Shown here piece by piece: positions 15,870-35,911 of a stretch of DNA of 35,911 nt. Source of the stretch: Vermamoeba vermiformis (taxonomy: Eukaryota); the NCBI GenBank assembly GCA_045837725.1, contig JBEWZL010000061.1, forward strand, positions 124,001-159,911, in the 5' to 3' direction. Position 1 is the first letter of the stretch; every line of letters starts with the position of its first letter. Made by a program: the position numbers and the translations under genes. A model generated the notes under the pieces. That model made no database searches, was not told where the DNA came from, and saw only the letters and a program-made list of their open reading frames with translations.

Positions 15870-16091
15870 ATTAATCGTCGTTAATTTAGTTAAATCGGGA
15901 CACAAAATTGCGCTTCGACAATTTATTTGCTTCAATAGACTGTTGAGGCCAAAGTGTGGCCGATGTCAAATTATCTCCGTATCCGATGTCATCGGAGTTT
16001 TAGTCGCAAATTAGGAATAATATAAATATTTTGCACAAATTTTGTTCCCTTTTTTGTTTGTGCCCGTCACTTTCCAGCAATATATGAATGA

Positions 16092-21100: not shown

Positions 21101-21423
21101 AATTGGATCTCATACTCTCTCTGCTTCATCTGCTGGTGCGATCTATTTGGCTCCATCAAGTGTTGGTCAGTTGATGAATTTAATGATTGAGGGTTTAGAT
21201 TTGGATGGTTTGTTATTAGCTGCTAGATATCTTCCTTATTCCACAGGAGTAACAGTGCCTGATTTTTGTAAGTAATGCCACTATTTTTGTTCACTAAACT
21301 AACATTTCTTAAGTTATTGTTGGTCAAAGTGCTCTTTGGTTGAGTGATGGAGGGATCTTGGCAGCTGGGTTTTGGGATTCAAATTGGCAGGCCAACACTC
21401 TGGCTAGTTACTTTACTATGTAA
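18105..21423 (+). CDS. Secreted alpha/beta-hydrolase (peptidase S9/esterase-like), many exons
   Basis: Signal peptide MDLKIKILFSLFLLLCGDSYS; WTAIGPFPGGMRE; ILALHGAGVDA; PTGRRPWGYDWHG; nucleophile GHSMGG; YGSEDNNVP (Asp); GEGHWW (His); C-terminal VPDF...AAGFWDSNW. Stop TAA at 21421-21423. Confidence 0.85.
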
Positions 21424-21479
21424 ATAAAACTATCATAGGAGCCTTGTTAGAACAGATAGTATGCTTATCTATTATGTTT

Positions 21480-23160
21480 TTGCACATCATTGGGAATAGA
21501 CACATCCTGCTATGTGCTGGTCACTTGGTTGGTGCAAATTGAAGGTCAACTTCTTCATCTTGATGGTGATGACAGGCAATTTGTCAATACCACTGCAGCC
21601 AGGGTCAATGTTGATGTTCATTGCTGTTGTGTGGCTTATGTTCTTGGCACTAATCTAGATTAGATTAGATTGGCTAATGCTTGTATGGAAGATTGTTTTT
21701 GCATCTAAGATGATCTTGATCTCTTGAGCTACAAAGAACCTGACCTGAGAGATACTCGCTTTCTCTTGCCTGTCATCCAAGATATTGGCCTCAATGCCCC
21801 TGCTGATGCTGATATGCCTCCAAATTCAATTGTGGAAATTTCTGATGATGAATCTCCAGCTCTGGGAATGACTCCATAGTCACATGCTTGGTTCAACTTG
21901 TCCCCAGATGCCAGTGCCACCTAAAAACAACTCAACCTGACCTGTTGTGAGACTCAGACCTGCCCTGATCTCAACCATCTTGAACCCAGTAGACTTCACA
22001 CCTGAAGAAGAGAAGCAGCATGAGAAGAACTTGAAGAAGGCTTGTGTGATGCTTAAGCCCTTTAATGGTACTGTAAAGGTGCCAATGCCTTGGGTGGGGT
22101 TGAAAGACTTATGAAGCATTGCTATTTGCTTCCACCTTCCTGAGTGCACTGCTTCCTGTTGGCATTGCATCAAGGGAAGATATCAGTGGTGTGGATCTGG
22201 AGGACAGTTCTGAGGTTAGTCAAAAGTTTGATTCTGTATTTAATTCAAAAATAGTCCCTATTATGCAGTTATTTTATGGTAAAGAAAAGGTTAAAATTGT
22301 TTTTTTATTTTTTGTGTTGGGCATGTGTGCATGAATCTGTATCTGACAGATTCCTGGATTATTGCTGATGATAAAGCAATGTACAAAATATATAAAATGT
22401 TAAAAGAAAAAAAAAATTTAATCTCTAATTTGTAACTCTGCATTTATTTATTATTGCTTTGTAAAAATAACAAGAGTCAAGTTGCATCCAGTGTATGCTG
22501 TTTGTCACTTGCAACAGCAAGCCATCGATACTTCAGCATCAATAATTACTGAGGTTATTGAGTTTTTCAAGAAGTGCAAATCTGCTCTCCAAAAAGAGCA
22601 GAAAGCAAGGTCTAGAAAGCGAAAGCAAGATGATTCTGAATCGTCTGAGCAACCTGCACAAAAGAAGCAAAAGATAAGTGGGAGTGCTTCACACAAGGAA
22701 TGAATCAATGCTGTTGCAGCAAGGTACAGCAAAGTCCAGGATGAGGAACCTTCAGAATCTCCAAATGAACCTGATCAAGGTGAGTAATGCTAATGAGGAT
22801 TCTTCAGTTGAGTATGGAGTTCATGAGGGAAGAAGAACAGCCACAATGGTGTGTGAGGACAGTACTCAACCTCTGGAGCATCTTGACAAAGTTGTAAAGC
22901 TTGGGGACAGGTTCAAAGCTTTGGAAAAATACTTGAGCCAGGGAGAGGAGGCAACATATGCACAAAAGGTGTCAAAGATTTGCATTAAAGTTCTTCGAGA
23001 ATTTTTAAAGTTTGGAGTTTTTCTTCAGATCTGCAAGAAATCATCAAAATTAATGCTTGAAGGCATTGGCAGTATGTATGCTGAGTCCTATGTTAATCTG
23101 AGTACCCATGAGAACACATCATGGTTGCATGTGGAAAGAAACCTTTTGCTTCATCTGTGA
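21480..23160 (+). pseudogene. Decayed intron-containing coding sequence of unknown family
   Basis: Protein-like stretches (DLDLLSYKEPDLRDTRFLLPVIQD; LNPVDFTPEEEKQHEKNLKKAC; KARSRKRKQDDSESSEQPAQKKQK) are broken by stops and frameshifts. Almost no CpG. Ends abruptly at the repeat starting at 23161. Confidence 0.55.
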
Positions 23161-23935
23161 TTAAAGGGTGTTTAGGGCCAGGGCTGGCCAGTTTTTAAAA
23201 TAAAATTGTACTTCAAACATGGGTAACCTTGTGCTTGGTGCAGCAGGAGGGCGTCAGACGGTCTGACGGCCTCAGGCAAGGGGGGGTGCGTCAGACCGTC
23301 TGACGGCCTCTGGCAAGGGGGGGTGCGTCAGACGGTCTGACGGCCTCAAGCAAAGAGGTGTTGCATCAACCAAGCTAATACTACTAGAATGGGGAGGTAC
23401 GTAAGACAGGCAAACAGTCTAGAGATGGCACATAGGTTCGACATTGGCCTGCAGTCTTTGTGCTTGGGGAAGATGTCCGTTAGGGTATGTAAAGGGGTGA
23501 GGGCGTCCGACACGTCCGACGGTCTCCACGTGCCTCAATTACCATATTAGGAAATTCTGGGAATTGTCAGAAGAATTACTTTGCAAAAAAATTTCATGTA
23601 CTGGAAAAGGGCGTCCGACGCGTCCGACGGTCTCCACGTGCCTCAATTACCATATTAGGAAATTCTGAGAATCTGTAGTTTCAAAGAAAAAACATGGAAC
23701 CGAAGCCTCTTGCAGCAAGCTCCAAAACACAAAATGCACCTGCACCTGCACCTGCACCTGCACATGCACCTACATTGCCGCAACCACGCAACCAAGTAAG
23801 AAAACGCTAATTAACGAGTTAAATTCTTTATTTAAAACAAAGAACAAAAGGTACATGCTGGAAGACACTAATTGCGTTGGACATAACCACGAGCTGCCAG
23901 TTCTTGGTCGAGGTCAACCAATAGACCCTCTGCCT
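23161..23935 (+). repeat. Long direct repeat, copy 1 (putative transposon terminal region)
   Basis: Begins TTAAAGGGTGTTTAGGGCCAGGGCTGGCCAG and aligns with 27119-28269. Contains 3 CGTCAGAC-N-GTCTGACG palindromes, a duplicated ~59-bp block (23501, 23609) and (TGCACC)n. Confidence 0.9.
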
Positions 23936-24522
23936 CAACATTCTGCCTGTAAGATCTAAAGGAAAGTTTTTAGAGATGAAGAATAATTTTTTAAACCGAA
24001 GCAGTACTTACCCTCAATAAGGCAGCGAATGATTTCGTCTCTCTTGGCTTGTTCGCCAACCAGCTTGATTCTAGTGCGTTCTCGTAACTTGGTGGCCCTC
24101 ATGTACAGAGTGGTTGCATAGATGGCATCGGGATGTTGCAAAAAACTATGCAAAAAAATATTAGAAATAAAAATTAAAAAAATAATTTTTTACTTGCAAG
24201 TGGTGGTTTGGGAACTGCTCTCTTGCTCGTCGATACTCTTCACTAATGCTGAGAGACTGCGGAACAAAATTGTGATCCCGAGTTGCACCTGAATTTAAAA
24301 AAAATAAATTGCAATTCATAAATATAGTTACTTTGTATTTTAATGAAAACAAAGTGTAGAATATTTCTTATATATAATATTGTTGAAATTAATTAAATGC
24401 TTACACGCAATGAAGGAGGTGATACTCATTTTGATCCGGAGTGTTGCAATATACATCTTGAATTCAAGGCGCTCAATGTGCTCATTCACTCGTTGAAGCT
24501 GGGCACGATACGTCTGTTCCAT
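23868..24522 (-). CDS. Small 4-exon hypothetical gene or pseudogene
   Basis: ATG at 24522 (MEQTYRAQLQRVNEHIERLEFK) and GT-AG introns. The last exon AEGLLVDLDQELA is conserved as AEGLLVELNKELA in repeat copy 2, but the frame junction to it is unclear. Confidence 0.4.
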
Positions 24523-24794
24523 AATTATCCTTAGTTGTCTATATTTTGAACAAAAAATACAGTTAGTCACAAAGTCAATTGAGCTAGATATTTTCGGTTA
24601 TGATATGCACATAAAACTATAAGTGCAATTAGTATTTAGTATTACATATTTAGTTGACTTGATTTCTGGAAGCTGCTGAACCTTTCATATAAATAATGCA
24701 CCAGTGCGTGCATCTCATTGGTACTGGTGCACATGCACCTGCACCTGTACTTGTACATGCACCTGCACCTGCACCTGCCGTAAAGGTAATTGTT

Positions 24795-25673
24795 TTATTC
24801 TGACTGTTCTTGCATAATCTCATTATACAAGTCCAGTGACATCTTCTTTATGGCATAGAGATCACAATGATGATTTGCATTCACGATCACCCGAAGTACA
24901 GAGGACGATCGATGAGCTGCAGCAATTTGCCAGAGAGAAGTACCAGTGTTCCAACCAACAAAAACGGCGTAATCAATTATACACCCATGATCTCCAATGG
25001 CTGCAGCCTCCAAAGAAACTCCAAGAGGGGCACGAAGAACTGTATGCGAGTAGATCAGGCTGGCAAGTTGACCATGTAAAGCAGCTGCTTCACATGTATC
25101 ACTGGTAGGTTCAACTCCTTGAGCGACAAGTGCCATCATGTACTTGATCTTCCCCTTTGAAGCCAAGTAATTCAACATCTTGCCATCGCAGAGCTGTTTT
25201 GTTCTTTTGCAAACCAATCGCACAGCAGAGAGACTCCACAAGCAAGATGAATAATTGGCGATTAATCTGCTCTTGTCGACCAAGTCAAACTTTGACGGAC
25301 GTACAATGTGGATCGGATCCAAGTTGCAAGGGTCCAGCAATTTGACACCTATTGTAAGGAGGCCTGGAATATCAGGGTAGGCTTTCTGAGTAATTAAACG
25401 AAGAATAATTAATTATTTAATTTAAATAAAATAGTTCTCCAATTAAGAAAACAAAATTTAAAATTGTAGAAATGCTTAATTTGAATTGAAACTCACCAAA
25501 TCTGAGATGAAGAGATTTCCACCAGGCTCCGAGGCTGCTTGTATTTCAATAGAGCAAAAAGTAATCTTTCTCCTAGTTTGTCCAGATCTGCGATGAAAAC
25601 CATTGTTAATACTACAACATAGAGTAATAATGAATATTGGATTGATACAGTACTTTTTAAAAGATGAAGCCAT
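24795..25673 (-). CDS. F-box-like plus divergent ankyrin-repeat protein (~205 aa, 3 exons)
   Basis: Exons ~25673-25654, ~25538-25498 and ~25348-24795 splice in frame. LSAVRLVCKR resembles an F-box end. Repeats TSDTCEAAALHGQLASLIY, LEAAAIGDHGCIIDY and LWQIAAAHRSSSVLR resemble ankyrin units. Confidence 0.6.
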
Positions 25674-25732
25674 GAGTTTGTTTGGATTCTGCAACAAAAA
25701 AAATGTACCGAACAACTACAATTTTTATTTAT

Positions 25733-26790
25733 TTACAAAATATCGCTAGAACGAGAATAGCTCATTTCAACACTATCGCTGCTACTAGCATCATCATCTC
25801 CAATATCTTCGTCCATGGGGACATATTCTGATAATGATGAATCCTCGTGCACCAGCAAGTCACTATCGAGGGACTCATCTGCAGGTGCAGGTGCAGGTGC
25901 AGGTGCAGGTTCATGTGCATGTGCTTGTGCAACTTCGGCTGCAGTCGGAGGGTACAAGCCCTGAAACCAATGGCAAGTATCAAAGTTGGGATCTGCTATT
26001 GCCTTTAAATTTGGCTGGTACCCCCAAACTTGACATGACTGGGCCGTTTCATCCTGCGTAATGCCTTTCAGCATACCTCGAGTTTGTTGTAGGCTCTCTA
26101 AGTTTACATTCTCCCCAAAAGTTGGATCTTTTGCTAGCACTTCATCTGTGGCATCTTCGATCTTAATAAAATGGTTAGCCCGATCATTAATGTTATACTT
26201 ACATGTACTTACTCCATAAACATTGGCAATAACTGTTGAATGAATTTGTAATAGAATGCCAGCGTACTTGACAATGTTGTCCATAGCATCTTGCTCCTCT
26301 CTAATCTCCTCCTCCTCGTGTTGTGATTTGGGCACAACATGTGCCCGCCATGGCTTTGTTGATGCAGTGCCTGTGGTGGCAGCTGCCTTAAAACTGACTA
26401 CTGTCTCCACCGAATTGCCAGAATAAGTTCGTGTCAACTTAATTTGTCTCTTCCTTTTGATCCATTCAACCTTGAAATCATTTGCCACTTCGAATAATTT
26501 GATCATTTTACTAGTATAACTGGTGTTAGACTCAATTTGAGAAATAAAACGTAATACAAAAACTTACTTAATTTGTTCGGTTACGACTGCTGGATCTGAG
26601 TCAATCTCTCCAAATATCTTCAGTGCAGTGCTCAATTCCACCCAATTCAAAGAATTAATGGATTGAGGCGTTTCAATATTGAGCTTTCGAATAAACCAAG
26701 ACTGATCTGGTTGAATAAAAAAATAAAATTAAAATCAATTTCTTAGTATTACGATTCAAATAATTATTAATTGCACTTACCTAGCTTTGA
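25733..26790 (-). CDS. Hypothetical protein with a PA-dipeptide tract and acidic tail; 5' end unclear
   Basis: The 257-aa ORF splices in frame to an upstream exon (~26568-26707, DQSWFIRKLNIETP). A further donor lies at 26780. No recognisable domain. Confidence 0.55.
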
Positions 26791-27120
26791 GAGCCGAATA
26801 CTCCAACAGCGAAAGCAGATGCATAACCAACATCCAAAACACAGATGAATACAAACAATTCATGATGAAAGCCGAAAAAGCCGAAAAAATAGACAAACTC
26901 GTCAGTGTTGACTCCAAAGACACTGATTCGAAGGATGAACAAGAAAAAAATCGAGAAAAAAATCCGAATCGGATGGTGAAAAAGAAGAAGAGTCCTAGAA
27001 GACATCGATATTGAAATCCCTGATTTCAGAAAATTTGTCATAAACTGTATCATGAACAGAGACAAAGGTGACACTATACAACAAATCATCAAGAAAACAA
27101 ACATCAACGCCAATCAAATT
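26790..27120 (+). pseudogene. Frameshifted K/E/D-rich coding fragment truncated at repeat copy 2
   Basis: KAEKAEKIDKLVSVDSKDTDSKDEQEK then, after frameshifts, LEDIDIEIPDFRKFVINCIMNRDKGDTIQQIIKK running into the TTAA at 27119. Confidence 0.4.
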
Positions 27121-28269
27121 AAAGGGTGTTTAGGGCCAGGGCTGGCCAGTTTTTAACATTTGTTTTTTTAAAATAAAATTGTACTTCAAACATGGGTAAC
27201 CTTGTTCTTGGTGCAGCAGGAGGGCGTCAGACGGTCTGACGGCCTAGGGATGGGGGGTGCGTCAGACAGTCTGACAGCCTCAGGTGCAAAGGCATTGCAC
27301 CTGCACCTGCACCTGCACATTCAGTCATGCACTGCAACAGCAAAGGGCGTCAGACGGTCTGACGGCCTAGGAACGGGGGGTGCGTCAGACGGTCTGACAG
27401 CCTCTGGCAACGGGGGGTGCGTCAGACAGTCTGATGGCCTCTGGCAAGGGGGGGGTGCGTCAGACGGTCTGACGGCCTCAGGCAAGGGGGTGCGTCAGAC
27501 GGTCTGACGGCCTCAGGCAAGGGGGTGCGTCAGACGGTCTGACGGCCTCTGGCAAGGGGGGGTGCGTCAGACGGTCTGATGGCCTCAGGCAAGGGGGGTG
27601 CGTCAGACGGTCTGACGGCCTCTGGCAAGGGGGGGGTGCGTCAGACCGTCTGACGGCCTCAGGCAAGGGGGGGTGCATCAGACGGTCTGACAGCCTCAAG
27701 CAATGAGGTGTTGCATCAACCAAGCTAATACTACTAGAATGGGGAGGTACGTAAGACAGGCAAACAGTCTAGAGATGGCACATAGGTTCGGCATTGGCCT
27801 GTAGTCTTTGTGCTTGGGGAAGATGTCTGTTAGGGTATGTAAAGGGGGGAGGGCGTCCGACGCGTCCGACGGTCTCCACGTGCCTCAATTACCATATTAG
27901 GAAATTCTGGGAATTGTCAGAAGAATTACTTTGCAAAAAAAAAATCATGTACTGGAAAAGGGCGTCCGACGCGTCCGACGGTCTCCACGTGCCTCAATTA
28001 CCATATTAGGAAATTCTGAGAATCTGTAAGTCCAAAGAAAAAAACATGGAAGTGAAGCCCCTGGCAGCAAACTCCAAATAATGAAATGCACCTGCACCTG
28101 CACCTGCACCTGCACCCGAATACTGCAGCCACATTACAAGTAAGAAACACTGATTAACAAGTTCAATTCTTTCAAACAACAATTACAAAAGCTGGGAGGA
28201 CACTAATTGTCTTTGGAACGAAATGTGTGGTGCTAGTTCTTTGTTGAGCTCAACCAACAGACCTTCTGC
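27119..28269 (+). repeat. Long direct repeat, copy 2 (expanded palindrome array)
   Basis: Same TTAAAGGGTG start and colinear with 23161-23935, but with 12 palindromic units instead of 3. Confidence 0.9.
27223..27697. repeat. Tandem array (~35-38 bp period) of palindromic GCGTCAGACGGTCTGACGGCC units separated by G-runs
   Basis: 12 units counted. 8-bp arms with a 1-nt centre. Most variants are CG>CA/TG. Confidence 0.92.
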
Positions 28270-28399
28270 ATAGTTAATTCCTTTGCACCATATTTGCACC
28301 TGCACCTGCACCTGCACCTGCACTGCACATCTAGCAGGTGCATTTCCGTGGATGTTGCTCCAATTTTTTTTTGTTATGCAAGCATCAAATTCTTGTTTT

Positions 28400-29360
28400 A
28401 CTAATGTATACCTTTGTTAATACAGGTAATATGCATGTGTGTATTGCTAATATGAGAGGATATTTTGTTAAAGGCAAGACTGCAGCTTCATCCGACTGGT
28501 GGAAATTGAGGCCAGAATGGAAGTGTTGTGCTGTGGCCAACATCGATATAAACAGAAGAAAGAGGAATACTACATGAGTTACATGTACTAAATCCCTTTC
28601 AAAAGCAGGAGAAGAAGTAGATCCACTTGTCCAGCATTCTCTAACTACTGCAGAGAAGCCAGCGCCAATAATCAGCAATTTACCTATATAGGGCAAGGTG
28701 TCAATTGTATATTGCATTCAATTTTAACTATTTTTTGTTGATTTTTAAACGCATCTGAAGACTTGACCGCAGCATGTTCTCATGCTAAGCTACAGTTTCA
28801 AGCTATTTGCAATAGGGATTACCAGGCTCATGAATTGGTTACCCTTTACCTTGGGTGGCTCTTCAAAGCAATGCTGTAAGCCACACAAGTCCCAGATGAT
28901 CTTTCATCATTGATGGAAAATTGCTCGAGGCTAAAAGAGATTTTTTGAAAGGAGAAGAATTTACACTCGATTATGGTAAACTAAATATTTATTACATGTA
29001 ATTTAATTTCGTATCAGGTTGTGGATGCTGGGAAAGTTTGGAGGCCAATCAAACACCAGACTAAAGAGTAGAAGAAAGCAGAGGAGTAAAACAATGATAA
29101 ATAAAGACAAGCATGCTCTAAATAATGTGTACGAGCTTGGATCTTGCAGCAACAAAAAATATTGACTCTGTGGATAGGTAGTGCAGTGGAGAAAAAAAAA
29201 GGAGCTAACTTTAGACCAATAGGATTGCAGAACAAGGATTTTAGGATATTTGACCAGGAAACAGCTAGTTACTTTTAGGCGGGAAAACATGAGTCGGACC
29301 AATTTTCAGGTTCTACTCAATCCCAGCAATTGCCTGTTCATTGTAGTATGAGCACAATTA
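28400..29360 (+). pseudogene. Heavily decayed intron-containing coding remnant
   Basis: Protein-like fragments (GKTAASSDWWKLRPEWK; QAHELVTLYLGWLFKAM) with many stops. Residual intron at ~28976-29017. CpG-poor. Confidence 0.4.
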
Positions 29361-29368
29361 ACAGTATT

Positions 29369-29920
29369 CAGTCGCGGCCAAAAGTATCGCCCCACCTTAA
29401 AAAAATTATCCCTCCCCAGCAAGGGGACCCATGGCTGTAACAAAGATGTATTATATAAGTATATATAAGGTAGTTTTGCATATGCATGTGCGTTGACCTT
29501 TGGGGGTTGAATGGCCAGTGAGCAAATCTTGCGAAAGTTTCGGCACAAGTGCGGAAATGGGGTTCGGCAAATGGAATTAATTTGCGGCAATTTATTCCAC
29601 CAGGACCTAACCTCTTCCAGTTTTCAGCATATTTTTCTTAATTGACAAGGTACTTGTACTACCCATATATATTAGTAGCAGTTTGATTGGACTCCTCTCT
29701 AAGGAGTTAAAAATCAAAACCTGCTTTTCGCGGATTTTATGGCTCGGAAACATTCATTTGACCAAAACAACCTACACCAATGTTTGCCAGCGATGCAAAT
29801 ATAATGAAAAATACTATCAGAGCTGGCATATATTTTCAATAGGATATCTTCATAGTCCACCTCTTCAAAACTGGTGACGGCCCTAGTCAAGTGATGGGGC
29901 GATACTTTCGGCCGCGACTG
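29369..29920. mobile_element. MITE (552 bp) with Tc1-like terminal inverted repeats
   Basis: TIR CAGTCGCGGCCAAAAGTATCGCCCCA (29369-29394) / TGGGGCGATACTTTCGGCCGCGACTG (29895-29920), 25/26 match. Flanked by ATT on both sides. No ORF. Confidence 0.88.
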
Positions 29921-30756
29921 ATTTATTGTTTAATAAGCTGTGATGCTTCAGTGCCAATATTTTTTATATTTTGTTCTGAATCTGCGACCTGGATCAAACA
30001 ACACTGCTCTCCTCGCACAGCTAACAAAAGTCAATCCAAATTCAGCTGTGGTTAAACATTTTATTTGTGGTTATGGTAGACTAAAGCAGAGCTCTTGATG
30101 CTAAAGGCACAGCTTTGGGTAGTTTGGCACAGCTGAACATCCGGTCACAGGAGAAAGATAAGTTAGCACCTCTAAGGGACTGCTATCCACTGCTAATAAA
30201 GTGCAACGGGTGGTACAAGCTGTCCCATTCCAGTTACACATGGTGGCACATGAACAGCATTGCATCCCAACCTGATCTGATATTGCACCTTGAATTGCAC
30301 CTGCACATGTCGATCGCACCTTGTATGTTGTATTAACTTGTACTATTATCTTTAATTAAAATAAATGTTTATTTAAAATCAAATAGAGAACAATTTTCTT
30401 ATTAAAGTAGCCTTCATATTTTGCCTTTGTTTTTCTCTTTTTTGTTTTTGATCGGATGTTGGATCAACAATGAATCTATCTCCCAATATCTTTGGGTCCT
30501 ACAGGGTACACATTGCACCTGCACCTGCAGTAAATGGCCCTACTTAAAATTCGATCGCTTCCGCTCATTTTCCAAAAAAGACCAACAGTTGCCTCTAAAC
30601 TCGTATGAAAATTGATCTGAATCCCATCCTTCTTCTTATTCATATATACTACAAGGCTTGGCCAAACAGGGCTAGCCTCAAAAACTATTCAAAAAGTAGC
30701 AGAATCGAGAATATTTTGATTGGGTTACTTTGGAATTTTTTAGTCAAGTGCTTGTG

Positions 30757-30885
30757 GGTGCTAACAAGAGACATCAAGGACTAACAAGAGTTGCCCAGTG
30801 CTAACGAGGGTCACCAAGAGCTGACGAAGGTTGATGATGTGGGTGCTAACAAGAGACACCAAGCACTAACAAGAGTCACTAATGA
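30757..30885. repeat. Degenerate ~20-bp minisatellite with CTAACAAGAG core
   Basis: CTAACAAGAG or near variants recur about 6 times at ~20-bp spacing. Confidence 0.75.
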
Positions 30886-30904
30886 GTGAACATGACGAGG
30901 CATA

Positions 30905-32030
30905 AATAGTTTAAAGCTCTTTATTAGCAGTACATTACAATTTTACAAACCTGAAAATAAAGGGTTAGAATAAAACAAGCTTAAAATAAAGTCCTACAAG
31001 ATCAGGAGTGGGAGACGATCCACTAAAAAAAACTAAGTTGTAGGAGGTTGTCTCCACCGTGGAGACAATGTAAAAAATTCTAAGCACAAACCTTCGTGAC
31101 CACTCTGGTCACGAACTAAAATAATTTAAGTTCTGCAAGGTCGTCTCCACCACGGAGACGATCACTAAAAAAAAACTAAGTTGTAGGAGGTCGTCTCCAC
31201 CGCGGAGACGATCTACTAAAAAAACCAAAGTCCGCAAGGGTCGTCTCCACGTGGAGACGATCTATGAAAAAAACAAAGTCATAGGAGGTCGTCTTCCTGT
31301 GGAGACGATCTACTATAAAAAAACTAAGTCGTAGGAGGTCGTCTCCGCCGCGGAGACGATCTACTAAAAAAACTAAGTCGTAGGAGGTCGTCTCCACGGT
31401 GGAGACGATGCCAGAAAAAATAAGAGTCAAACAAACTTACCCTAAGCCATAGTGGGTTGTAGTGGCCACAATGTTCCATGGCATGTTATAATGGCCATGA
31501 GAGGAGCTGTAGAGCGAAAGGAAATTCCTGAATGAGCTGATTCGTTAAATCAAAATGCGTTACACAAGTAACCTTGGCTTACCTCACACAAGTTGCACGG
31601 TGGTGCTAATCCAGCAGTACCTAAGTTCACGGAGCGTACGAGGTGGCCAGAAGCACTGCACAAGTAATAAAAATTAGATGCCGCGCATCTAAAAATTTAC
31701 GGATTTAAATTTTTTTGCTTACCGAATGCTGCGCACGTGGGCTACCACCTAACGGCATTCTCCTTTGATTTAAGGCACGGAAGAACCACTGCAGTGAGCT
31801 CGAAGAACTTAAGTATGACCCGCAACCGATCAGCTGAAAAACGAAATATTAGTAAAATTAATTAAGTAATATACTGAATTTAATTAAGGGTTAGGGAAAC
31901 TTACCTTAGTGCACTGCGCACTGTACAAGGACATATTGGGAACAGACAGCCGATCGGCACACCGGTAACCTTGGCGGACGAAAGCAGTTGCGTTGCGGTC
32001 ACAACGCAACAATAACAAGAAAATCTTTTT
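30905..32030 (-). ncRNA. Putative spliced 5-exon transcript without a convincing ORF (lncRNA or pseudogene)
   Basis: Minus-strand GTAAG donors near 31904, 31722, 31582 and 31440, with matching YAG acceptors (last at 30951, with a CTAAC branch point). AATAAA at ~30920-30925. Longest spliced ATG-ORF is ~70 aa. Confidence 0.45.
31005..31412. repeat. Tandem array (~50 bp) of GTCGTCTCC-N4-6-GGAGACGAT hairpins separated by A-tracts
   Basis: Seven full or near-full hairpin units, one half unit, and one unrelated hairpin (TTCGTGACCA-CTC-TGGTCACGAA at ~31093). Confidence 0.9.
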
Positions 32031-32267
32031 CTAAATAAAATTAATTTCACGACCATTGTGGTGATCGTGTGCACTGGTGGGTGTTTAACCAAGTTTAGTT
32101 TCGGGCATGAATTTTTCAGCCGTGCCAGGATTTATCCCAGCACAAAAACAATTTTTAGCAGCACGTGCCTCTCGACGCACGTCGGTTTTCTCCGTCGACA
32201 CACGTCGGCTTTCGCGGCATTGACTAAATTGGCAAAGTGACCGTTACGCACGTGCGAGTGTAAAAAC

Positions 32268-32695
32268 TTTGACAGATCGACCACAAGGGTCGATTTATTT
32301 ATTTATTGTCATTACAGCATTAAGTACCGCGCCACGGCATTAGAGCCGCTCCAGCGCGAGTTATTTGGATCAGATGCTGATGTGAAAACGGTTGCATAAC
32401 GCGTTATTTCGCATCAGCAATGCCACAAATCGACCATAAGGGTCGAAATATTTATTTTATGCTGCTTATCACAGCAGACAGTGCCACGCCACGGTCGCCA
32501 CAGCCGTTCAGCGCGAGTTATTTTGAGATTTGATAGCTGCGAACTCGTATTCGCGACAGATCGACCACAAGGGTCGGTTTGTTCATTTAGATTATTTGTA
32601 TGGAATCAGCAGACACGCGCCAAACGACAATCAGCGTCGTTGCGGGACTCTGAACGTTATCTAAGTCGCGCGAATCTCCGAGATTATTAAAGGTA
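32268..32695 (+). repeat. Modular hairpin array, block 1
   Basis: 3 copies of TCGACC-N5-GGTCG(A), 2 of CGCC..CGG...CCG..CAGCGCGAGTTATTT, and hairpin GCTGATGTGAAA...TTTCGCATCAGC. Homologous to 33700-34155. Confidence 0.88.
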
Positions 32696-33549
32696 ATATC
32701 TAATACCAGCATTTATGATATCGTAAATTTATTTTTACTTACAACTCAATGTTTTAAAATTGGGATTTAATAATTTAAAAGCGCTTTTAGATTTAAAATT
32801 TAACAAAGATATCCGGCTTTGCGCGCCAATGCTTCTATTCCTTACTTTGTAAATTGCTGGTAAGAATCTTTATTATTGCAGTGCTGAATATTAACTCAGT
32901 TTGTTATTAGAAATGCTCTCATGAACGATCGAGCCCTTCAGATCGAGAAGTACGCGATCTACGCTCCGTCTCTAACACAGAGTAGATCTATTTGGTAAGT
33001 AATTCATTGCGTTAAATCGACGATTAATAACTGTACATACTCAGGAATCGTCAACGAGGCACTTGAACCAAGTGAGTGAAACTACCGCATCCAACATCGG
33101 ACCTTCCTTTGGATTAAGCTCATCGATCCCGCCAAAGGTAATAATAGAGCTTTATACATATTTAATACAACGTACTAATATTATGATTTACAGTTTAAGT
33201 GCTTGGCAGAGCTATGAATGGTGCCACGACACGGGGAAAACGCGTTCCGCAACTTCGCCAGTGAAAAATAGCGCAAAGGCGCAGCCGTAAATAATTCATT
33301 TAATATTTATGTCATTGCATCTCAATACTAACGCGTTAATCACCAGATTTGACACGGCATGTGGGTAACGCGGCACGCTGATTGGACTAGGCGTGGATCG
33401 AGGCTTGGCTATTTTAGAACGCTATCTTTTGGAGCAATTAATTAAGTGTAATAGGTTCAAGTAATAAAAAACGGTTCTTGTACATAAAAAGATTAAAAGG
33501 ATCCCGCGGGAGGAGTTTCGCAAAGATCTGGCGCGATTAATCCAAAACC

Positions 33550-34155
33550 TTTGACAGATCGACCACGAAGGTCGAAAGATTAATTTCAATTTTTAATTAA
33601 CAGCTGGCAGTTACGCGCCACGGTCGCAACGGCCGTTCAGCGCGAGTTATTTCAATATACTGAATTCGCACGGTCATCGGGAACGCTTTGTGTATGAAAC
33701 CTTGACAGATCGACCATAAGGGTCGATTTATTTAGTTATTACCATACGATTAGTTTATTTACAGCCTAGAGTAACGCGCCGCGGCACCAGAGCCGTTCCA
33801 GCGCGAGTTATTTTCGGTCAGAGCTGATGCGAAAACGGTTGCACGGGTTATTTCGCATCAGCAATTCAACAGATCGACCACAAGGGTCGAAATATTTATT
33901 ATCTATTGAATATTAACAGATGACAGTGACGTGCCACGGTCGCAACGGCTGTTCAGCGCGAGTTATTTCGATGACAAGTTGATGCGAAATCTAGATTCGC
34001 GATAATTCGACCACAAAGGTCGAGTTATTTAATTCATATGATTATTTACAGCATAAAAACACGCGCCAAACAACTTTCAGCGTCGTTCCAAGAGAGACAA
34101 TGCGCGAGATCAAGACTTGCGCGAATCTCGGTGCAGAGACCGAGATAAATCAAGG
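33550..34155 (+). repeat. Modular hairpin array, block 2
   Basis: 4 TCGACC-N5-GGTCGA hairpins, 3 CGCGCC..CAGCGCGAGTTATTT modules, and a perfect 12-bp stem GCTGATGCGAAA/TTTCGCATCAGC. Confidence 0.88.
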
Positions 34156-35911
34156 TAAGATTTTTTATAAATACTTCCACCTTCATCTATCGTAAATTCA
34201 ATGTTTAAATTTTCAATTAAAAATTAATTATATCCGGATCGAGCCAAGTGCTCGGACTTTATCCGGATTTTTTGTTATTAATAACGGTTAATTAATATCA
34301 AGTACAACGTTTAGATTATGGTTACGAACTTTTAGCGCGATCGAAAGTTCCACTTACTTTCGATGCGCGAGATCTCGACCACCAATGGTCGTAAAATATT
34401 ATTCAATGCTGTTTCGTTCGTCTCCTGCATTGATTAGTATCCTTACTGCTCGCTCACGGGCTCGCCAACTCGATGGCGCGATCGGATGCGTGGGACGCGT
34501 CCAAATAATACGTAAGTAATTTTTTTAATATATTAGATATTAGTAAGACGCAATGAATGCGTCGATTTCATTTTTAAAATTATGCTTTAAGTTATTAAAT
34601 TTTCAAATTACGGATCGAGCTTAGTGCTCGATTTAATTTCACATTTACGTTATAAATATTATAGTACTAACATATTAACGTTTATTATGACAGGGATTGG
34701 GCGATTGAATGATCACGAAACGAATCTGATCGCTCGCTGCTTCGATCCGCGAAATACACCTTGAAAACCACTGGTAAGTACTATGGTATAATTTAATAAA
34801 TGATTTAAAATCATTCTAACAGTTCGCAGTCAGGAAAAAAAGGAGAAGAAGAGAGATCTAGATCGCGCACTTCGCGCGATAATTGCTATGGCTTGTCTCG
34901 TCAGTTTCCCGCGGTAAGTGTTGAAATGCGTAGAAGATATCGATTACTAACACAATATAGGTTGGTAATTGATAACAGTGCGTTTAATTAGCGGATGAAC
35001 CGCTTCGATCCAGCGGACTCTAAATCCCGTAAAATACCCTTGATTGGCTCAACGGCTATTATAGGTAAGTAAAACGCGTTCTATCTATTACTATAATCGA
35101 CAAGAAACTCATGGTTTGATTTTAGGAGTTTATTTATACAGTTCTTAGATCAGCGCGATCCGATCCCGCGTACCAATGCAATCTACCTCGGCCCCAAGAC
35201 CGCAGAACAATTCGTAAGTTTAAATAGAGCTAGAAGGTACTTAATACTAACAAATTAATTTATTATAAGGCTGTAATCGCTCACGGTGAGGATCGGAGCG
35301 ATGGTTAAGTGTGCGATCCGGGAGAGTCATTTTGGCGAGTTAGTGCGTAGAAATTTTAACAGTAGCATTCAGCTATGGTAAGCAATATAATTGATAGTCA
35401 ATAGCGCGTACTAATACATAATTATTTAGGTTCTCGTTAAATGATGCGATCTAAATCCATCGGAGGAAAATTACTCAGCGGCACCGAGTAGAGCAAAAAG
35501 TAATTAATTGTAACAATATTAATAATTTCTAATACATACAGCAGCGTAAATTCGACACGGGATTAAAAGTTCCGTTTAAAAGAGATCGCGCCTAATTTCA
35601 TAGGCAACCCAACACCAAGTAAGTCAACGCATCGGTAGCAAGCACGTTATACTAACATATTTTATTACTTAGGCTTTAATCGCTTACAACAATGACGAAA
35701 CAATTCAACGAGATCGGATCGCAGAAATTTACTGCTTGGTCGATTAAGTAAGCAATGTTATGATTAATATTTTTATTTATTAATATATAACATAATTAAA
35801 GTGTTGATATTTGAATTGAAATTATTGTTAAAGTTTTAAAAATTTAAAATCACGGATCGAGCTTCGTGCTCGTATAAAATTTAAATTATTGTTTATTTTA
35901 TCATTCATACA

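What the first reader, a model, noticed from the sequence alone, without database searches (positions are those of the whole stretch)
32268..34155. Repeated 13-nt + 38-nt module in which hairpins cover non-canonical splice donors
Seen: unit = ACAG | ATCGACCAyAAGG (13 nt) | GTCG + AT-rich 29-43 nt ending CAG (7 of 7 copies) | exactly 38 nt (5 of 5 copies: 32318, ~32475, 33604, 33765, 33920) | GCGAGTTATTT. Both boundaries lie in the 3' arm of a stem (TCGACC/GGTCGA; CGCGC/GCGCG). Loops and spacers vary while pairing is mostly kept, often through G-U-compatible changes. 13+38 = 51 nt keeps frame: joining block 2 gives open STTKLAVTRHGRNGRSA-STIRPRVTRRGTRAVPA-STTRMTVTCHGRNGCSA with synonymous GTN Val codons. 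Inference: a microexon array with GT-CG and GC-AG donors gated by RNA structure, or a multi-hairpin ncRNA/ssDNA recognition array. Caveats: the spacers are shorter than host introns, two acceptors are degenerate, and block 1 has a stop.
Basis: partly seen in the sequence, partly recalled or inferred. Interest (0 to 1): 0.8.

Follow-up and report, generated by a model that had tools for sequence, protein, structure and literature searches.

The report
Conserved hairpin repeats, not microexons
Two neighbouring copies of a short non-coding DNA module made of repeated hairpin-forming motifs sit in front of intron-rich, non-coding gene-like stretches of a microbial eukaryote; the repeats are real and partly conserved, but nothing shows that they are spliced mini-exons.

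Summary
The repeat is real. There are seven units, spaced 131-164 nt, in two tandem paralogous blocks (32264-32692 and 33546-34154).

The splice reading fails each test I could run:
- The 'donors' are GTCGR: C at +3 in 7 of 7, G at +5 in 1 of 7. None of the 7 spacers has a CTRAY branch, and they are 29-43 nt long. Nine homology-defined host introns are 46-68 nt and all have G at +5.
- The joined 'exons' show no codon-position bias: 9/9/7 variable columns, and 17 synonymous against 81 non-synonymous codon differences.
- The best-conserved piece is the supposed intron start, GCGAGTTATTT.
- Three RNA-seq runs with the same species label gave no read lying wholly on 32000-35911. Fourteen reads from a paralogue run unspliced through the H1/spacer boundary.
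- No pair shows a compensatory change (0 of 9). There is no Rfam family and no relative in metagenome or viral contigs.

Best reading (confidence 0.4): a lineage-specific, CpG-rich hairpin-repeat leader with T-rich linkers, at the head of two tandem multi-intron non-coding genes. Interest 0.3.

The parts
32150..32263 (+). Degenerate remnant of a further unit (u0) upstream of block 1. It corresponds to u4 of block 2.
   Evidence: Pairwise alignment of 32150-32900 with 33600-34350. It carries short CGAC-4 nt-GTCG palindromes. Weak similarity only; nhmmer does not detect it.
32264..32692 (+). Block 1: units u1-u3. It ends at AAG|GTAATA.
   Evidence: Fold z-score -4.7 on the + strand and -3.05 on the - strand, for 32150-32696.
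33546..34154 (+). Block 2: units u4-u7. It ends at AAG|GTAAGA.
   Evidence: Fold z-score -9.8 on the + strand and -5.2 on the - strand.
32277..32293 (+). H1 hairpin of u1 (TCGACC-ACAAG-GGTCGA). The same 17-nt hairpin lies at 32430-32446, 32561-32577, 33559-33575, 33710-33726, 33874-33890 and 34007-34023.
   Evidence: 83-94% identity between units. 5 of 7 are also flagged as hairpin plus T-rich tail.
32289..32317 (+). The others lie at 32442-32474, 32573-32609, 33571-33603, 33722-33764, 33886-33919 and 34019-34051.
   Evidence: Lengths 29-43 nt, all GTCG...CAG, 0 of 7 with CTRAY. 45% T, T/A ratio 1.5. 50-72% identity between units.
32318..32366 (+). H2 of u1: 38-nt compound hairpin segment plus GCGAGTTATTT. 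The others lie at 32475-32523, 33604-33652, 33765-33813 and 33920-33968.
   Evidence: 40 of 45 pair cells form standard pairs, and 0 of 9 pairs change on both sides. GCGAGTTATTT is 11 of 11 identical in all 7 unit pairs that hold it in both units; the eighth pair compared, u3/u7, lacks it.
32376..32418 (+). H3 of u1, a 12-bp stem. Its counterpart in u5 lies at 33823-33862. Shorter GCGAA...TTCGC hairpins take this place in u2 and u6.
   Evidence: (families D6, D13). The u1/u5 tail is 83% identical, the u2/u6 tail 57%.
32610..32692 (+). Terminal unit type (u3), with the hairpin CAACGAC...GTCGTTG and a last hairpin before the donor. Its counterpart in u7 lies at 34052-34154.
   Evidence: (family D9). 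RNA reads of a paralogue join an H1 and its linker to this segment from 32612 on (table 5c).
32693..33480 (+). Gene-like stretch A after block 1. Intron-like segments lie at 32693-32881, 32995-33044 and 33138-33193, between GC-richer segments without a reading frame. AATAAA lies near 33465.
   Evidence: Read from the sequence. Stops in all three frames of the joined segments. The pattern scan lists matches ending at 33193; the boundaries 32881 and 33044 are read by eye.
34155..35911 (+). Gene-like stretch B after block 2. At least 10 GTAAG-type donors lie on the + strand (34155, 34512, 34774, 34914, 35065, 35214, 35378, 35500, 35619, 35748), mostly with an ACTAAC or ACTAAT branch and a YAG. 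The 'exons' are 70-108 nt, without a reading frame. The stretch runs off the window.
   Evidence: Five of 8 exon-like segments have stops in all three frames.
34512..34693 (+). Long intron-like segment with the conserved hairpin CGGATCGAGC-4 nt-GTGCTCG. Its paralogues lie at 34155-34335 and 35748-35911. The counterpart in stretch A lies at 32693-32881.
   Evidence: families D5, D8; 64.5% and 69% identity.
34376..34391 (+). Further H1-like hairpin (CGACCA-CCAA-TGGTCG) inside the first exon-like segment of stretch B. It is preceded by a hairpin in the H3 position and by GCGCGAG.

Best explanation
What it is: two tandem paralogous copies of a 0.45-0.6-kb non-coding module, each built of three or four diverged subrepeats of about 150 nt.

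A subrepeat holds, in order:
- a 17-nt hairpin H1 (TCGACC, 5-nt loop, GGTCGA);
- a T-rich linker of 29-43 nt;
- a compound hairpin H2 of fixed length that ends in an invariant 15-mer (CAGCGCGAGTTATTT);
- a variable third hairpin.

Each module ends at a canonical AAG|GTAAG or AAG|GTAAT donor. On the same strand it is followed by GC-richer segments without a reading frame, separated by canonical short introns.

How I read it: the module is the repeat-bearing leader (first exon) of two neighbouring spliced non-coding RNA genes of a microbial eukaryote. The conserved hairpins and the 15-mer act as repeated binding sites for a factor. The T-rich stretches are linkers, not introns. Unit number changes by unequal exchange.

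Shown: the repeats, their hairpin potential, conservation of short motifs above their flanks, the CpG excess, the strand bias of splice signals, the absence of any reading frame, and sequencing of a paralogous copy in RNA libraries with the linker retained.

Inferred: that this locus is transcribed at all, where its transcript starts and ends, that the intron-like segments are removed, and any binding function.
For: - Repeats far above chance. Seven units in two blocks. The blocks are paralogous at 73% identity.
- Uneven conservation across the 8 unit pairs compared. GCGAGTTATTT is 11 of 11 identical in the 7 pairs that hold it (u3 and u7 lack it). H1 is 83-94% identical, the 38-nt segment 64-87%, the linkers 50-72%. 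The homologous first intron downstream barely aligns. This points to constraint on short motifs rather than recent copying.
- Strong predicted structure: z = -9.8 for block 2 and -4.7 for block 1 on the + strand, weaker on the - strand at -5.2 and -3.05.
- Both modules end at a conserved AAG|GTAAK donor. They are followed by GTAAG...CTAAY...YAG signals: 13 pattern matches on the + strand against 2 on the - strand in 32693-35911, with a block-shuffle mean of 3.4 and a maximum of 12. GTAAGT occurs 7 times on the + strand in 32-35.9 kb.
- No reading frame. Five of 8 exon-like segments have stops in all three frames. No stop-to-stop frame reaches 100 aa in 31.4-35.9 kb.
- CpG observed/expected is 1.7-1.8 in the blocks and 1.6-2.2 downstream, against 1.0 in two coding genes and 0.49 in the adjacent 21-31 kb. 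The domain therefore does not look like the CpG-depleted repeats next door.
- In the three RNA runs, 14 reads (3, 7 and 4) carry a paralogous H1 unit. They share the same single difference, and their flanks agree at 0.9-1.0. They run on from H1 through the linker, and two of them into a u3-type segment. Uniform flanks, together with zero reads on the 3.9 kb laid, argue for RNA of one paralogous locus rather than DNA carry-over.
- Linkers are 45% T (T/A ratio 1.5), against a ratio of 1.05 in host introns. That fits U-rich linkers.
Against: - No read of three RNA-seq runs (about 13 million records read from each) lies wholly on 32000-35911. This locus is silent in those samples, absent or diverged in that strain, or gives RNA that the libraries miss.
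- I laid no control gene, so I cannot show that the runs cover this strain's genes.
- The libraries look unstranded, so the strand of the paralogous RNA is unknown (table 2).
- Contigs of run X4 are colinear with the genome across two intron-like segments (34441-34597 and 34636-34905). If that run is RNA, those segments were not removed. Its longest contig of 38 kb suggests DNA.
- There is no compensatory change in 9 H2 pairs of 5 units. By eye I count 6 G-T and 4 A-C mismatches in the stems, so they do not clearly favour the + strand.
- All hairpins are palindromes in DNA and fold on both strands.
- Short hairpins are frequent over the whole 22-36 kb.
- No relative from any other organism could be found, so conservation rests on paralogues only.
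Confidence: 0.4

Rival explanations
1. Neutral, palindrome-rich tandem DNA. This is a minisatellite-like array, copied once by segmental duplication, with no function of its own. The hairpins are a by-product of how such repeats arise and are kept by slippage.
For: - Head-to-tail units with varying number: 3 in block 1, 4 in block 2, apparently 1 in the paralogue seen in reads.
- Other hairpin-bearing tandem repeats lie nearby: a 50-nt unit at 31138-31409, and a 37-nt unit at 23251-23353 and 27347-27703.
- Short perfect hairpins are about twice as frequent as in shuffles over the window, and are concentrated in 22-36 kb (129 centres against 60).
- An 11-nt indel between u3 and u7 removes the centre of a palindrome and keeps the arms.
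- No compensatory pairs.
- No read on the locus in three RNA runs.
Against: - A 15-mer is invariant in 5 of 5 copies, and H1 is 83-94% identical, while linkers and tails fall to 37-72%. Homogenisation by conversion would be expected to carry the flanks along.
- CpG excess of 1.7-1.8, against 0.49 in the neighbouring repeat-rich 21-31 kb.
- Both copies end at the same canonical donor and continue into splice-signal-rich sequence on one strand.
- A paralogue is present in RNA libraries.
- No telomere array: single TTAGGG hexamers only.
Confidence: 0.25
2. DNA-level control region. The blocks are arrays of palindromic binding sites (ATCGACC-N5-GGTCGAT and CGCGCC...GCGCG) in an unmethylated, CpG-rich promoter region. 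They drive the downstream non-coding transcription units and work as double-stranded DNA.
For: - The conserved elements are perfect or near-perfect dyads without strand preference.
- CGCG occurs 11-12 times per kb in 32-35 kb, against 0-7 per kb in every 1-kb bin of 1-32 kb (mostly 0-5).
- CpG observed/expected is above 1.6.
- The blocks lie between an AATAAA near 33465 and the first donor at 34155.
- Spacing between motifs varies, as tolerated by site arrays.
Against: - The paralogous unit is inside a sequenced RNA, with 88-94 nt of upstream sequence in the same reads.
- The canonical donor directly after the last hairpin implies that at least the end of the block is exon.
- Folding is stronger on the + strand than on the - strand.
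- No factor is known.
Confidence: 0.15
3. Remnant of a mobile element that uses hairpins. Candidates are the end region of a rolling-circle (Helitron-like) or other DNA transposon, or a miniature derivative. The repeated subterminal motifs would be recognised as single-stranded or double-stranded DNA. This covers the reader's 'ssDNA recognition array'.
For: - A dispersed family: besides the two blocks, a copy with other flanks appears in the RNA reads, and another in a contig of run X4 (tables 7 and 8).
- Repeated short inverted motifs are typical of transposon subterminal regions (recalled, not tested).
- The adjacent 23.2-28.3 kb looks like an element flanked by direct repeats.
Against: - No CTRR within 20 nt after 7 of 7 H1 and after 4 of 5 H2 (the one case lies 15 nt away).
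- No terminal inverted repeats or target duplications seen around the blocks.
- No transposase, Rep or helicase: Pfam found 0 families in 10 neighbouring frames.
- No further copy in the other 31 kb of the window.
- The CpG excess contrasts with the CpG-depleted repeats next door.
Confidence: 0.07
4. The 13-nt and 38-nt segments are microexons, joined by removal of GTCG...CAG and GCGAGT...CAG spacers, with hairpins masking the donors. A variant I considered is that the equal-length 38-nt segments are mutually exclusive exons chosen by competing stems.
For: - Fixed 13-nt and 38-nt segments between variable spacers that begin GT or GC and end CAG.
- GCGAGT fits GYGAGT. One host intron uses GTGAGT.
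- One length-preserving pair of indels inside H2: the alignment of u1/u5 with u2/u4/u6 puts one gap in each row.
- An open frame of 50 codons in block 2.
Against: - First spacers: C at +3 in 7 of 7 and G at +5 in 1 of 7, 0 of 7 with CTRAY, 29-43 nt long. The nine host introns, defined by a 95%-identical transcript-derived protein, are 46-68 nt, all have A or G at +3 and G at +5, and 5 of 9 have a CTAAY match; I read a sixth (ACTAAT) by eye in the 15052-15099 intron.
- Second spacers: a CTRAY match (CTGAT, 21 nt from the start) in 2 of 5 only, and acceptors ACAA and ATAA in 2 of 5.
- Variable columns fall 9, 9 and 7 on codon positions 1, 2 and 3. Pairwise differing codons are 17 synonymous against 81 non-synonymous.
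- Block 1 has a stop in that frame.
- The three units are copies of one another, so an open frame of 50 codons is worth about 17 independent codons.
- No frame continues upstream or downstream.
- Eleven invariant bases on the 'intron' side exceed what a donor needs.
- All 14 RNA reads that cross a paralogous H1|GTCG boundary continue into the spacer. Reads of a spliced form could not have been laid, so this shows retention, not absence of splicing.
Confidence: 0.03

Closest known systems
[quoted passage not shown]
   Same: Several copies of a short, GC-rich, hairpin-forming core separated by T/U-rich linkers of variable length. They lie at the head of a gene-like unit with introns and no reading frame, and copy number varies between paralogues.
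   Different: - No sequence similarity.
- The unit here is about 150 nt with three hairpins, not a 26-mer.
- The organism is a microbial eukaryote.
- No transcript of this locus, no bound protein and no function have been shown.

This is an analogy of design, not membership.
Micro-exon genes of Schistosoma (abstract of bioRxiv 10.1101/2023.06.21.545858 seen in the listing: exons of 3-81 bp, symmetric, long introns up to 5 kb, secreted proteins)
   Same: Runs of very short conserved segments between non-conserved spacers.
   Different: - Here the segments are 13 and 38 nt, so neither is a multiple of three.
- The spacers are 29-73 nt and lack the host's splice signals.
- There is no signal peptide, no reading frame and no coding substitution pattern.
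Tandem repeats with dyad symmetry (minisatellites and satellites). This is general knowledge, recalled; no paper was read.
   Same: Head-to-tail units, palindromic cores, variable copy number, and neighbouring arrays of the same style in the window.
   Different: - Only 3-4 units per block, and the units are 37-94% alike depending on the element.
- Short motifs are invariant.
- CpG is in excess.
- The array is embedded at a fixed place in front of a canonical donor in both paralogues.
Introner-like elements of fungi (abstract of PMC3609843 seen in the listing: hundreds of copies, longer than regular introns, stable predicted secondary structures). This applies to the long intron-like segments, not to the finding itself.
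   Same: Three to four paralogous intron-like segments of 164 nt or more (up to about 190 nt). They are several times longer than their 42-61-nt neighbours, and each has a conserved hairpin.
   Different: - Only 64-69% alike.
- Seen only in this locus of the window.
- Genome-wide copy number is unknown.
- Splicing has not been shown.
Class I RNAs of dictyostelid amoebae (passages read in PMC7919456: 42-65 nt, terminal stem, 11-nt motif after the 5' arm, start AAG, end CUGU, DUSE about 60 nt upstream)
   Same: Clustered short hairpin units with a conserved short motif. The host may be an amoebozoan: the nearest named relative of the fused His protein is Arcella intermedia at 51%. On the - strand each hairpin is followed by CTGT.
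   Different: - The conserved motif lies outside the stem and differs in sequence.
- The units are about 150 nt.
- No element was seen at a fixed distance upstream.
- The paper's authors asked whether the class exists outside Dictyostelia; I read only that question, not its outcome.
- I ran no covariance model for this class. Rejected as a lead.

Membership tests
Host spliceosomal GT-AG introns (applied to the seven GTCG...CAG spacers) | Donor GTRNGT-like, with A or G at +3 and G at +5 | tested here: not met
   Spacers have C at +3 in 7 of 7 and G at +5 in 1 of 7. The nine His-gene introns, placed by tblastn of the 95%-identical protein P0121, read GTGAGT, GTATGA, GTATGT, GTACGT x3, GTAAGA and GTAAGT x2, so 9 of 9 meet the feature. 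Two of the nine were re-placed by eye, at 14230 and 15052, after the script mis-refined them.
Host spliceosomal GT-AG introns (applied to the seven GTCG...CAG spacers) | Branch-site motif CTRAY upstream of the acceptor | tested here: not met
   0 of 7 spacers hold CT[AG]A[CT]. Of the 9 host introns, 5 have a CTAAY match, and a sixth (ACTAAT) is seen by eye in the 15052-15099 intron.
Host spliceosomal GT-AG introns (applied to the seven GTCG...CAG spacers) | Length within the host range | tested here: not met
   Spacers are 29-43 nt. The nine host introns are 46-68 nt. Larger host introns exist in the kinase gene.
Host spliceosomal GT-AG introns (applied to the seven GTCG...CAG spacers) | Exon-exon junctions in RNA | tested here: inconclusive
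   No joints in 3 RNA runs, because no read covers the locus. The 14 reads of a paralogue keep the spacer.
Micro-exon (coding) array | Exon lengths that keep the frame individually, and a continuous reading frame with flanking coding exons | tested here: not met
   13 and 38 nt: only their sum is a multiple of 3. There is a stop in block 1. There is no frame upstream or downstream.
Micro-exon (coding) array | Coding substitution pattern (excess of third-position and synonymous change) | tested here: not met
   Variable columns fall 9/9/7 of 17 each. Pairwise codon differences are 17 synonymous against 81 non-synonymous.
Any curated RNA family (Rfam 15) | Match to a covariance model | tested here: not met
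   0 matches at gathering score over the window. At E up to 5 over 30900-35911 there were three weak matches far below their thresholds. Only one (ATPC motif, 23.4 bits against a threshold of 45, - strand, 32211-32294) touches the first H1. ARAGORN found no tRNA.
Structured RNA under selection (generic) | Compensatory base-pair changes | tested here: inconclusive
   For H2 of 5 units, 40 of 45 cells are paired, 0 of 9 pairs change on both sides, and the shuffle control is uninformative. The H1 stems are invariant. With 5-7 paralogues the test has little power.
Tandem repeat / satellite | Head-to-tail copies of one unit | tested here: met
   Start-to-start spacing is 153 and 131 nt in block 1, and 151, 164 and 133 nt in block 2. 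Seven profile matches have E from 4e-35 to 6e-27. TRF did not report the array.
Tandem repeat / satellite | Subterminal position next to a telomere array | tested here: not met
   Only isolated TTAGGG or CCCTAA hexamers, and none at either window end. Whether the window end is a chromosome end cannot be told: no genome is held.
Helitron-type end | Hairpin about 10 nt before a 3' CTRR terminus; Rep/helicase in the family | tested here: not met
   No CTRR within 20 nt after 7 of 7 H1 and after 4 of 5 H2. No Pfam family in 10 neighbouring frames. The defining features are recalled, not read.
lncRNA repeat module of the Xist Repeat A type (design, not homology) | Several GC-rich hairpin cores separated by U-rich linkers near the 5' end of a spliced non-coding transcript | tested here: inconclusive
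   The sequence design is met. A transcript of this locus is not shown.
lncRNA repeat module of the Xist Repeat A type (design, not homology) | Recruitment of a protein by the repeats | not testable with these tools
   Needs pull-down or cross-linking experiments.

The most novel reading that the evidence does not exclude
A protist has a small family of spliced, multi-intron non-coding RNA genes. Their first exon is an expandable array of conserved stem-loops joined by U-rich linkers. The array is a multivalent platform that recruits a factor, as Repeat A does for Xist. The genes are expressed only in a life stage or condition not sampled by the three RNA runs. The invariant 15-mer and the H1 hairpin would be the recognition elements.
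Probability: 0.12. Interest if true: 0.65.

Novelty: new member of a known kind. Interest (0 to 1): 0.3.

Why it matters
If the module is the working part of a non-coding RNA family, it would be a compact, sequence-defined case of repeat-based RNA scaffolding outside animals. Its two short invariant motifs could be used directly as baits. It would also show that canonical introns are kept in transcripts with no reading frame in such an organism.

If it is neutral repeat DNA, the value is practical. It warns that GT...AG-bounded AT-rich spacers between conserved palindromes can mimic exon-intron structure. The check needed is the host's own donor, branch and length rules, plus the codon-position pattern.

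The sharp change of CpG content is a usable marker of two chromatin or methylation states in this genome: 0.49 in 21-31 kb, against 1.6-2.2 in 32-36 kb.

Tried and rejected
Tools that gave nothing to work with:
- Whole genome: none is held for this window. No genome-wide census, R-scape-type test or copy count was possible.

Sequencing runs:
- No RNA holder was listed in the index.
- Small-share rows X4 and X5 are not used for habitat or strain.
- Run X4 ('RNA?' is a guess) gave three short contigs colinear with the genome. I treat it as uninformative on splicing.

Searches for relatives:
- Metagenome contigs, ACAG+H1 pattern: 0 hits.
- Metagenome contigs, H1...GCGCGAGT pattern: 2 hits, both in GC-rich unrelated contigs with no second motif. 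These are chance.
- Viral contigs, 18-mer of H1: 1 hit inside a GC-rich contig. This is chance.
- Genome contigs was not scanned, because it holds prokaryotes only.

RNA families and classes:
- Rfam at gathering score and at E up to 5: nothing usable.
- tRNA or tmRNA: none.
- By eye I looked for box C/D (RUGAUGA...CUGA with a terminal stem), H/ACA (hairpins too short, no pocket), a hammerhead core (CUGAUG is followed directly by UGAAA, with no helix II), Sm sites (AUUUUG in u2 only), A/B boxes of polymerase III, and spliced-leader genes. None fits. These consensus motifs are recalled.
- Dictyostelid Class I RNAs: passages read, no fit.

Coding capacity:
- Three-frame translation of the joined exon-like segments.
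- Stop-to-stop frames.
- A possible ATG frame at 34101 runs into a stop after about 37 codons (worked out by hand).

Neighbourhood and host:
- Pfam on ten neighbouring frames: 0 families.
- Protein atlas on the kinase tail: no taxonomic lead.
- My first script for host introns chose over-long introns and was discarded. It was replaced by the homology-guided set.
- The bacterial-type terminator scan is used only as a count of hairpin-plus-T sites: 17 against 4.3 in shuffles. It is not used as evidence of termination.


Full report
Setting.

The window is nuclear DNA of a microbial eukaryote. Its first 20 kb hold ordinary protein genes. These include a kinase and a fused histidine-biosynthesis gene, whose product is 95% identical to an unnamed transcriptome protein of 1276 aa. 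The nearest named relative of that protein is Arcella intermedia at 51%. Placing the 95%-identical protein on the window by tblastn defines nine introns of 46-68 nt. All nine have A or G at +3 and G at +5. Five have a CTAAY branch motif, and a sixth (ACTAAT) is seen by eye in the 15052-15099 intron; two of the nine were re-placed by eye after a script mis-refined them. Everything below rests on the window, on one lay of public reads, and on searches of public collections.

The observation.

- The H1 hairpin TCGACC-5 nt-GGTCGA occurs seven times on the + strand. The pattern search gave 11 matches against 0.57 expected.
- CAGCGCGAGTTATTT occurs five times without a mismatch, against 0.14 expected.
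- A profile built from the seven units finds those seven and nothing else in the window.

The units are not independent. Block 1 (32258-32736) and block 2 (33690-34205) are paralogues at 73% identity. Block 2 has one more unit (u4), of which block 1 keeps only a remnant.

Anatomy.

Each unit has four parts:
- H1, a 17-nt hairpin.
- A T-rich linker: 45% T, T/A ratio 1.5, against 1.05 in host introns.
- A compound hairpin H2, with an outer CGCGC/GCGCG stem and an inner CGG.../...CCG stem, ending in the invariant 15-mer.
- A third hairpin that differs between unit types.

The last unit of each block (u3, u7) is of another type and ends in AAG|GTAAT (32693) or AAG|GTAAG (34155).

Predicted folding is far stronger than for shuffles on both strands, and more so on the + strand. 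For block 2, z is -9.8 on + and -5.2 on -. For block 1 it is -4.7 and -3.05.

Conservation is uneven across the 8 unit pairs compared. GCGAGTTATTT is identical in the 7 pairs that hold it in both units. H1 is 83-94% identical, the 38-nt segment 64-87%, the linkers 50-72% and the tails 37-83%.

What follows the blocks.

Downstream of each block the + strand carries a run of canonical splice signals. GTAAGT occurs seven times on the + strand in 32-35.9 kb, against 0-2 per kb elsewhere. A donor-branch-acceptor pattern matches 13 times on + and twice on - in 32693-35911, against a mean of 3.4 and a maximum of 12 in 200 block shuffles.

The GC-richer segments between these signals (70-108 nt in stretch B) have no reading frame. 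No stop-to-stop frame in 31.4-35.9 kb reaches 100 aa.

Three intron-like segments of stretch B are long, from 164 nt (cut by the window end) to 182 nt. They are paralogous at 64-69% identity and share a conserved H1-like hairpin. The first intron-like segment of stretch A (189 nt) is their faint counterpart.

The picture is of two neighbouring gene-like units without coding capacity, each headed by a hairpin-repeat module.

Composition.

CpG observed/expected is about 1.0-1.4 in the gene-rich 1-20 kb. It falls to 0.49 over 21-31 kb, with TpG and CpA in excess. It rises to 1.7-1.8 in the blocks and to 1.6-2.2 in the exon-like and intron-like segments of stretch B (1.36 in the exon-like segments of stretch A). 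The finding therefore lies in a CpG-rich domain that borders a CpG-depleted, repeat-rich one. This argues against its being the same kind of DNA as the neighbouring repeats.

RNA evidence.

One search for runs and one lay were allowed. Three RNA-seq runs labelled with the species of the best DNA holders were laid on 32000-35911. About 13 million records were read from each, roughly half of each run. No read lies wholly on the stretch and no joint was reported.

Fourteen reads (3, 7 and 4) lie only on 32265-32304. All carry T32294A, with uniform unlike flanks on both sides. Two continue, after 23 other letters, at 32612. These are reads of a paralogous single-unit copy elsewhere in the genome: H1, then a linker, then a u3-type segment. 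In all of them the sequence runs from H1 into the linker without a break.

Uniform flanks, and the contrast with zero reads on 3.9 kb, argue for RNA of one locus rather than DNA carry-over.

Limits:
- I laid no control gene, so the silence of this locus holds only if the runs come from a strain that has it.
- The libraries look unstranded.
- Spliced reads with a 13-nt exon could not have been laid.
- Contigs of a fourth run of uncertain kind (X4) are colinear with the genome across two intron-like segments. Its contigs reach 38 kb, so it is probably DNA.

The splice reading.

It fails on the host's own rules.
- First spacers: C at +3 in 7 of 7, G at +5 in 1 of 7, no CTRAY in 7 of 7, and all shorter than the shortest of the nine host introns.
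- Second spacers: they start with a plausible GC donor (GCGAGT), but a CTRAY match occurs in only 2 of 5 and far from the acceptor. Two of 5 end in ACAA or ATAA.
- Coding pattern: variable columns fall evenly on codon positions (9, 9 and 7 of 17 each). Pairwise differing codons are 17 synonymous against 81 non-synonymous.
- The open frame of block 2 spans three copies of one unit, is closed in block 1, and continues nowhere.
- Eleven invariant bases on the 'intron' side of the second boundary are more than a donor needs.

The 38-nt length is kept between the two H2 subtypes through what looks like one deletion and one insertion.

Structure or palindrome.

In H2 of the five units, 40 of 45 pair cells are standard pairs, but 0 of 9 pairs change on both sides. 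The H1 stems never vary. By eye I count six G-T and four A-C mismatches in stems on the + strand, which is no clear strand preference. The data cannot separate an RNA structure from double-stranded dyad sites. With five to seven paralogues the test is weak.

Known families.

- No Rfam model matches and no tRNA was found.
- No relative turned up in metagenome contigs (0 hits, then 2 chance hits) or viral contigs (1 chance hit).
- Helitron-type ends are not met: there is no CTRR within 20 nt after 7 of 7 H1 or after 4 of 5 H2.
- No transposon protein lies nearby.
- Dictyostelid Class I RNAs were read up and do not fit.
- The nearest design I know is Repeat A of Xist: copies of a short hairpin core joined by U-rich linkers in the 5' region of a spliced non-coding RNA (passages of PMC5742192). 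This is an analogy, not kinship.

Verdict.

| Reading | Confidence |
|---|---|
| Lineage-specific hairpin-repeat leader of two tandem non-coding, multi-intron gene-like units, with conserved motifs as repeated recognition sites and T-rich linkers | 0.4 |
| Neutral palindromic tandem DNA | 0.25 |
| DNA-level control array | 0.15 |
| Transposon remnant | 0.07 |
| Microexons | 0.03 |

The finding is a new instance of a known kind of thing, of modest interest (0.3) unless RNA work shows the module to be a working part of a non-coding RNA.

Noticed in passing
window 21001-31000 versus 32001-35911: There is a sharp switch in CpG content. Observed/expected is 0.49 over 21-31 kb, down to 0.07-0.11 in 21-23 kb, with TpG and CpA in excess. 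It is 1.6-2.05 per kb bin in 32-35.9 kb, and 1.0-1.4 in the gene-rich first 20 kb. This suggests a methylated repeat domain next to an unmethylated one.
   Followed up: partly
window 23160-23933 and 27118-28269: Two direct repeats at 86-88% identity flank about 3.2 kb that holds two - strand frames (24795-25412 and 25733-26563) without any Pfam family. Each repeat carries a 37-nt palindromic tandem array (23251-23353 and 27347-27703) and TGCACC microsatellites. It may be an element with long terminal repeats.
   Followed up: partly
window 31000-31425: A 49-50-nt tandem repeat (5.5 copies, 82-83% matches). Its unit is a 10-bp-stem hairpin (GGTCGTCTCC...GGAGACGATC) followed by an A-run. It lies directly upstream of the finding.
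   Followed up: no
window 32693-33480 and 34155-35911: Two gene-like stretches have at least 3 and at least 10 canonical intron signals on the + strand, but stops in every frame of the joined 'exons'. They are candidate multi-intron non-coding genes. No read of three RNA runs lies on them.
   Followed up: partly
window 34155-34335, 34512-34693, 35748-35911 (and 32693-32881): Paralogous long intron-like segments (64-69% identity) share the hairpin CGGATCGAGC-4 nt-GTGCTCG in an AT-rich setting. Introner-like multiplication within one locus is possible.
   Followed up: partly
window 11549-15870: One long gene fuses histidine-pathway enzymes. The Pfam families precomputed for the 95%-identical 1276-aa protein are PRA-CH, PRA-PH, histidinol dehydrogenase, a class I/II aminotransferase and a HAD phosphatase. 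A HisA-like frame lies just upstream at 10653-11542.
   Followed up: partly
window 35740-35753: The 3' arm of an H1-like motif (TGGTCGATT) sits directly in front of a canonical donor (AA|GTAAGC at 35748). At this one place the H1/linker junction of the repeat units resembles a real exon-intron junction.
   Followed up: no
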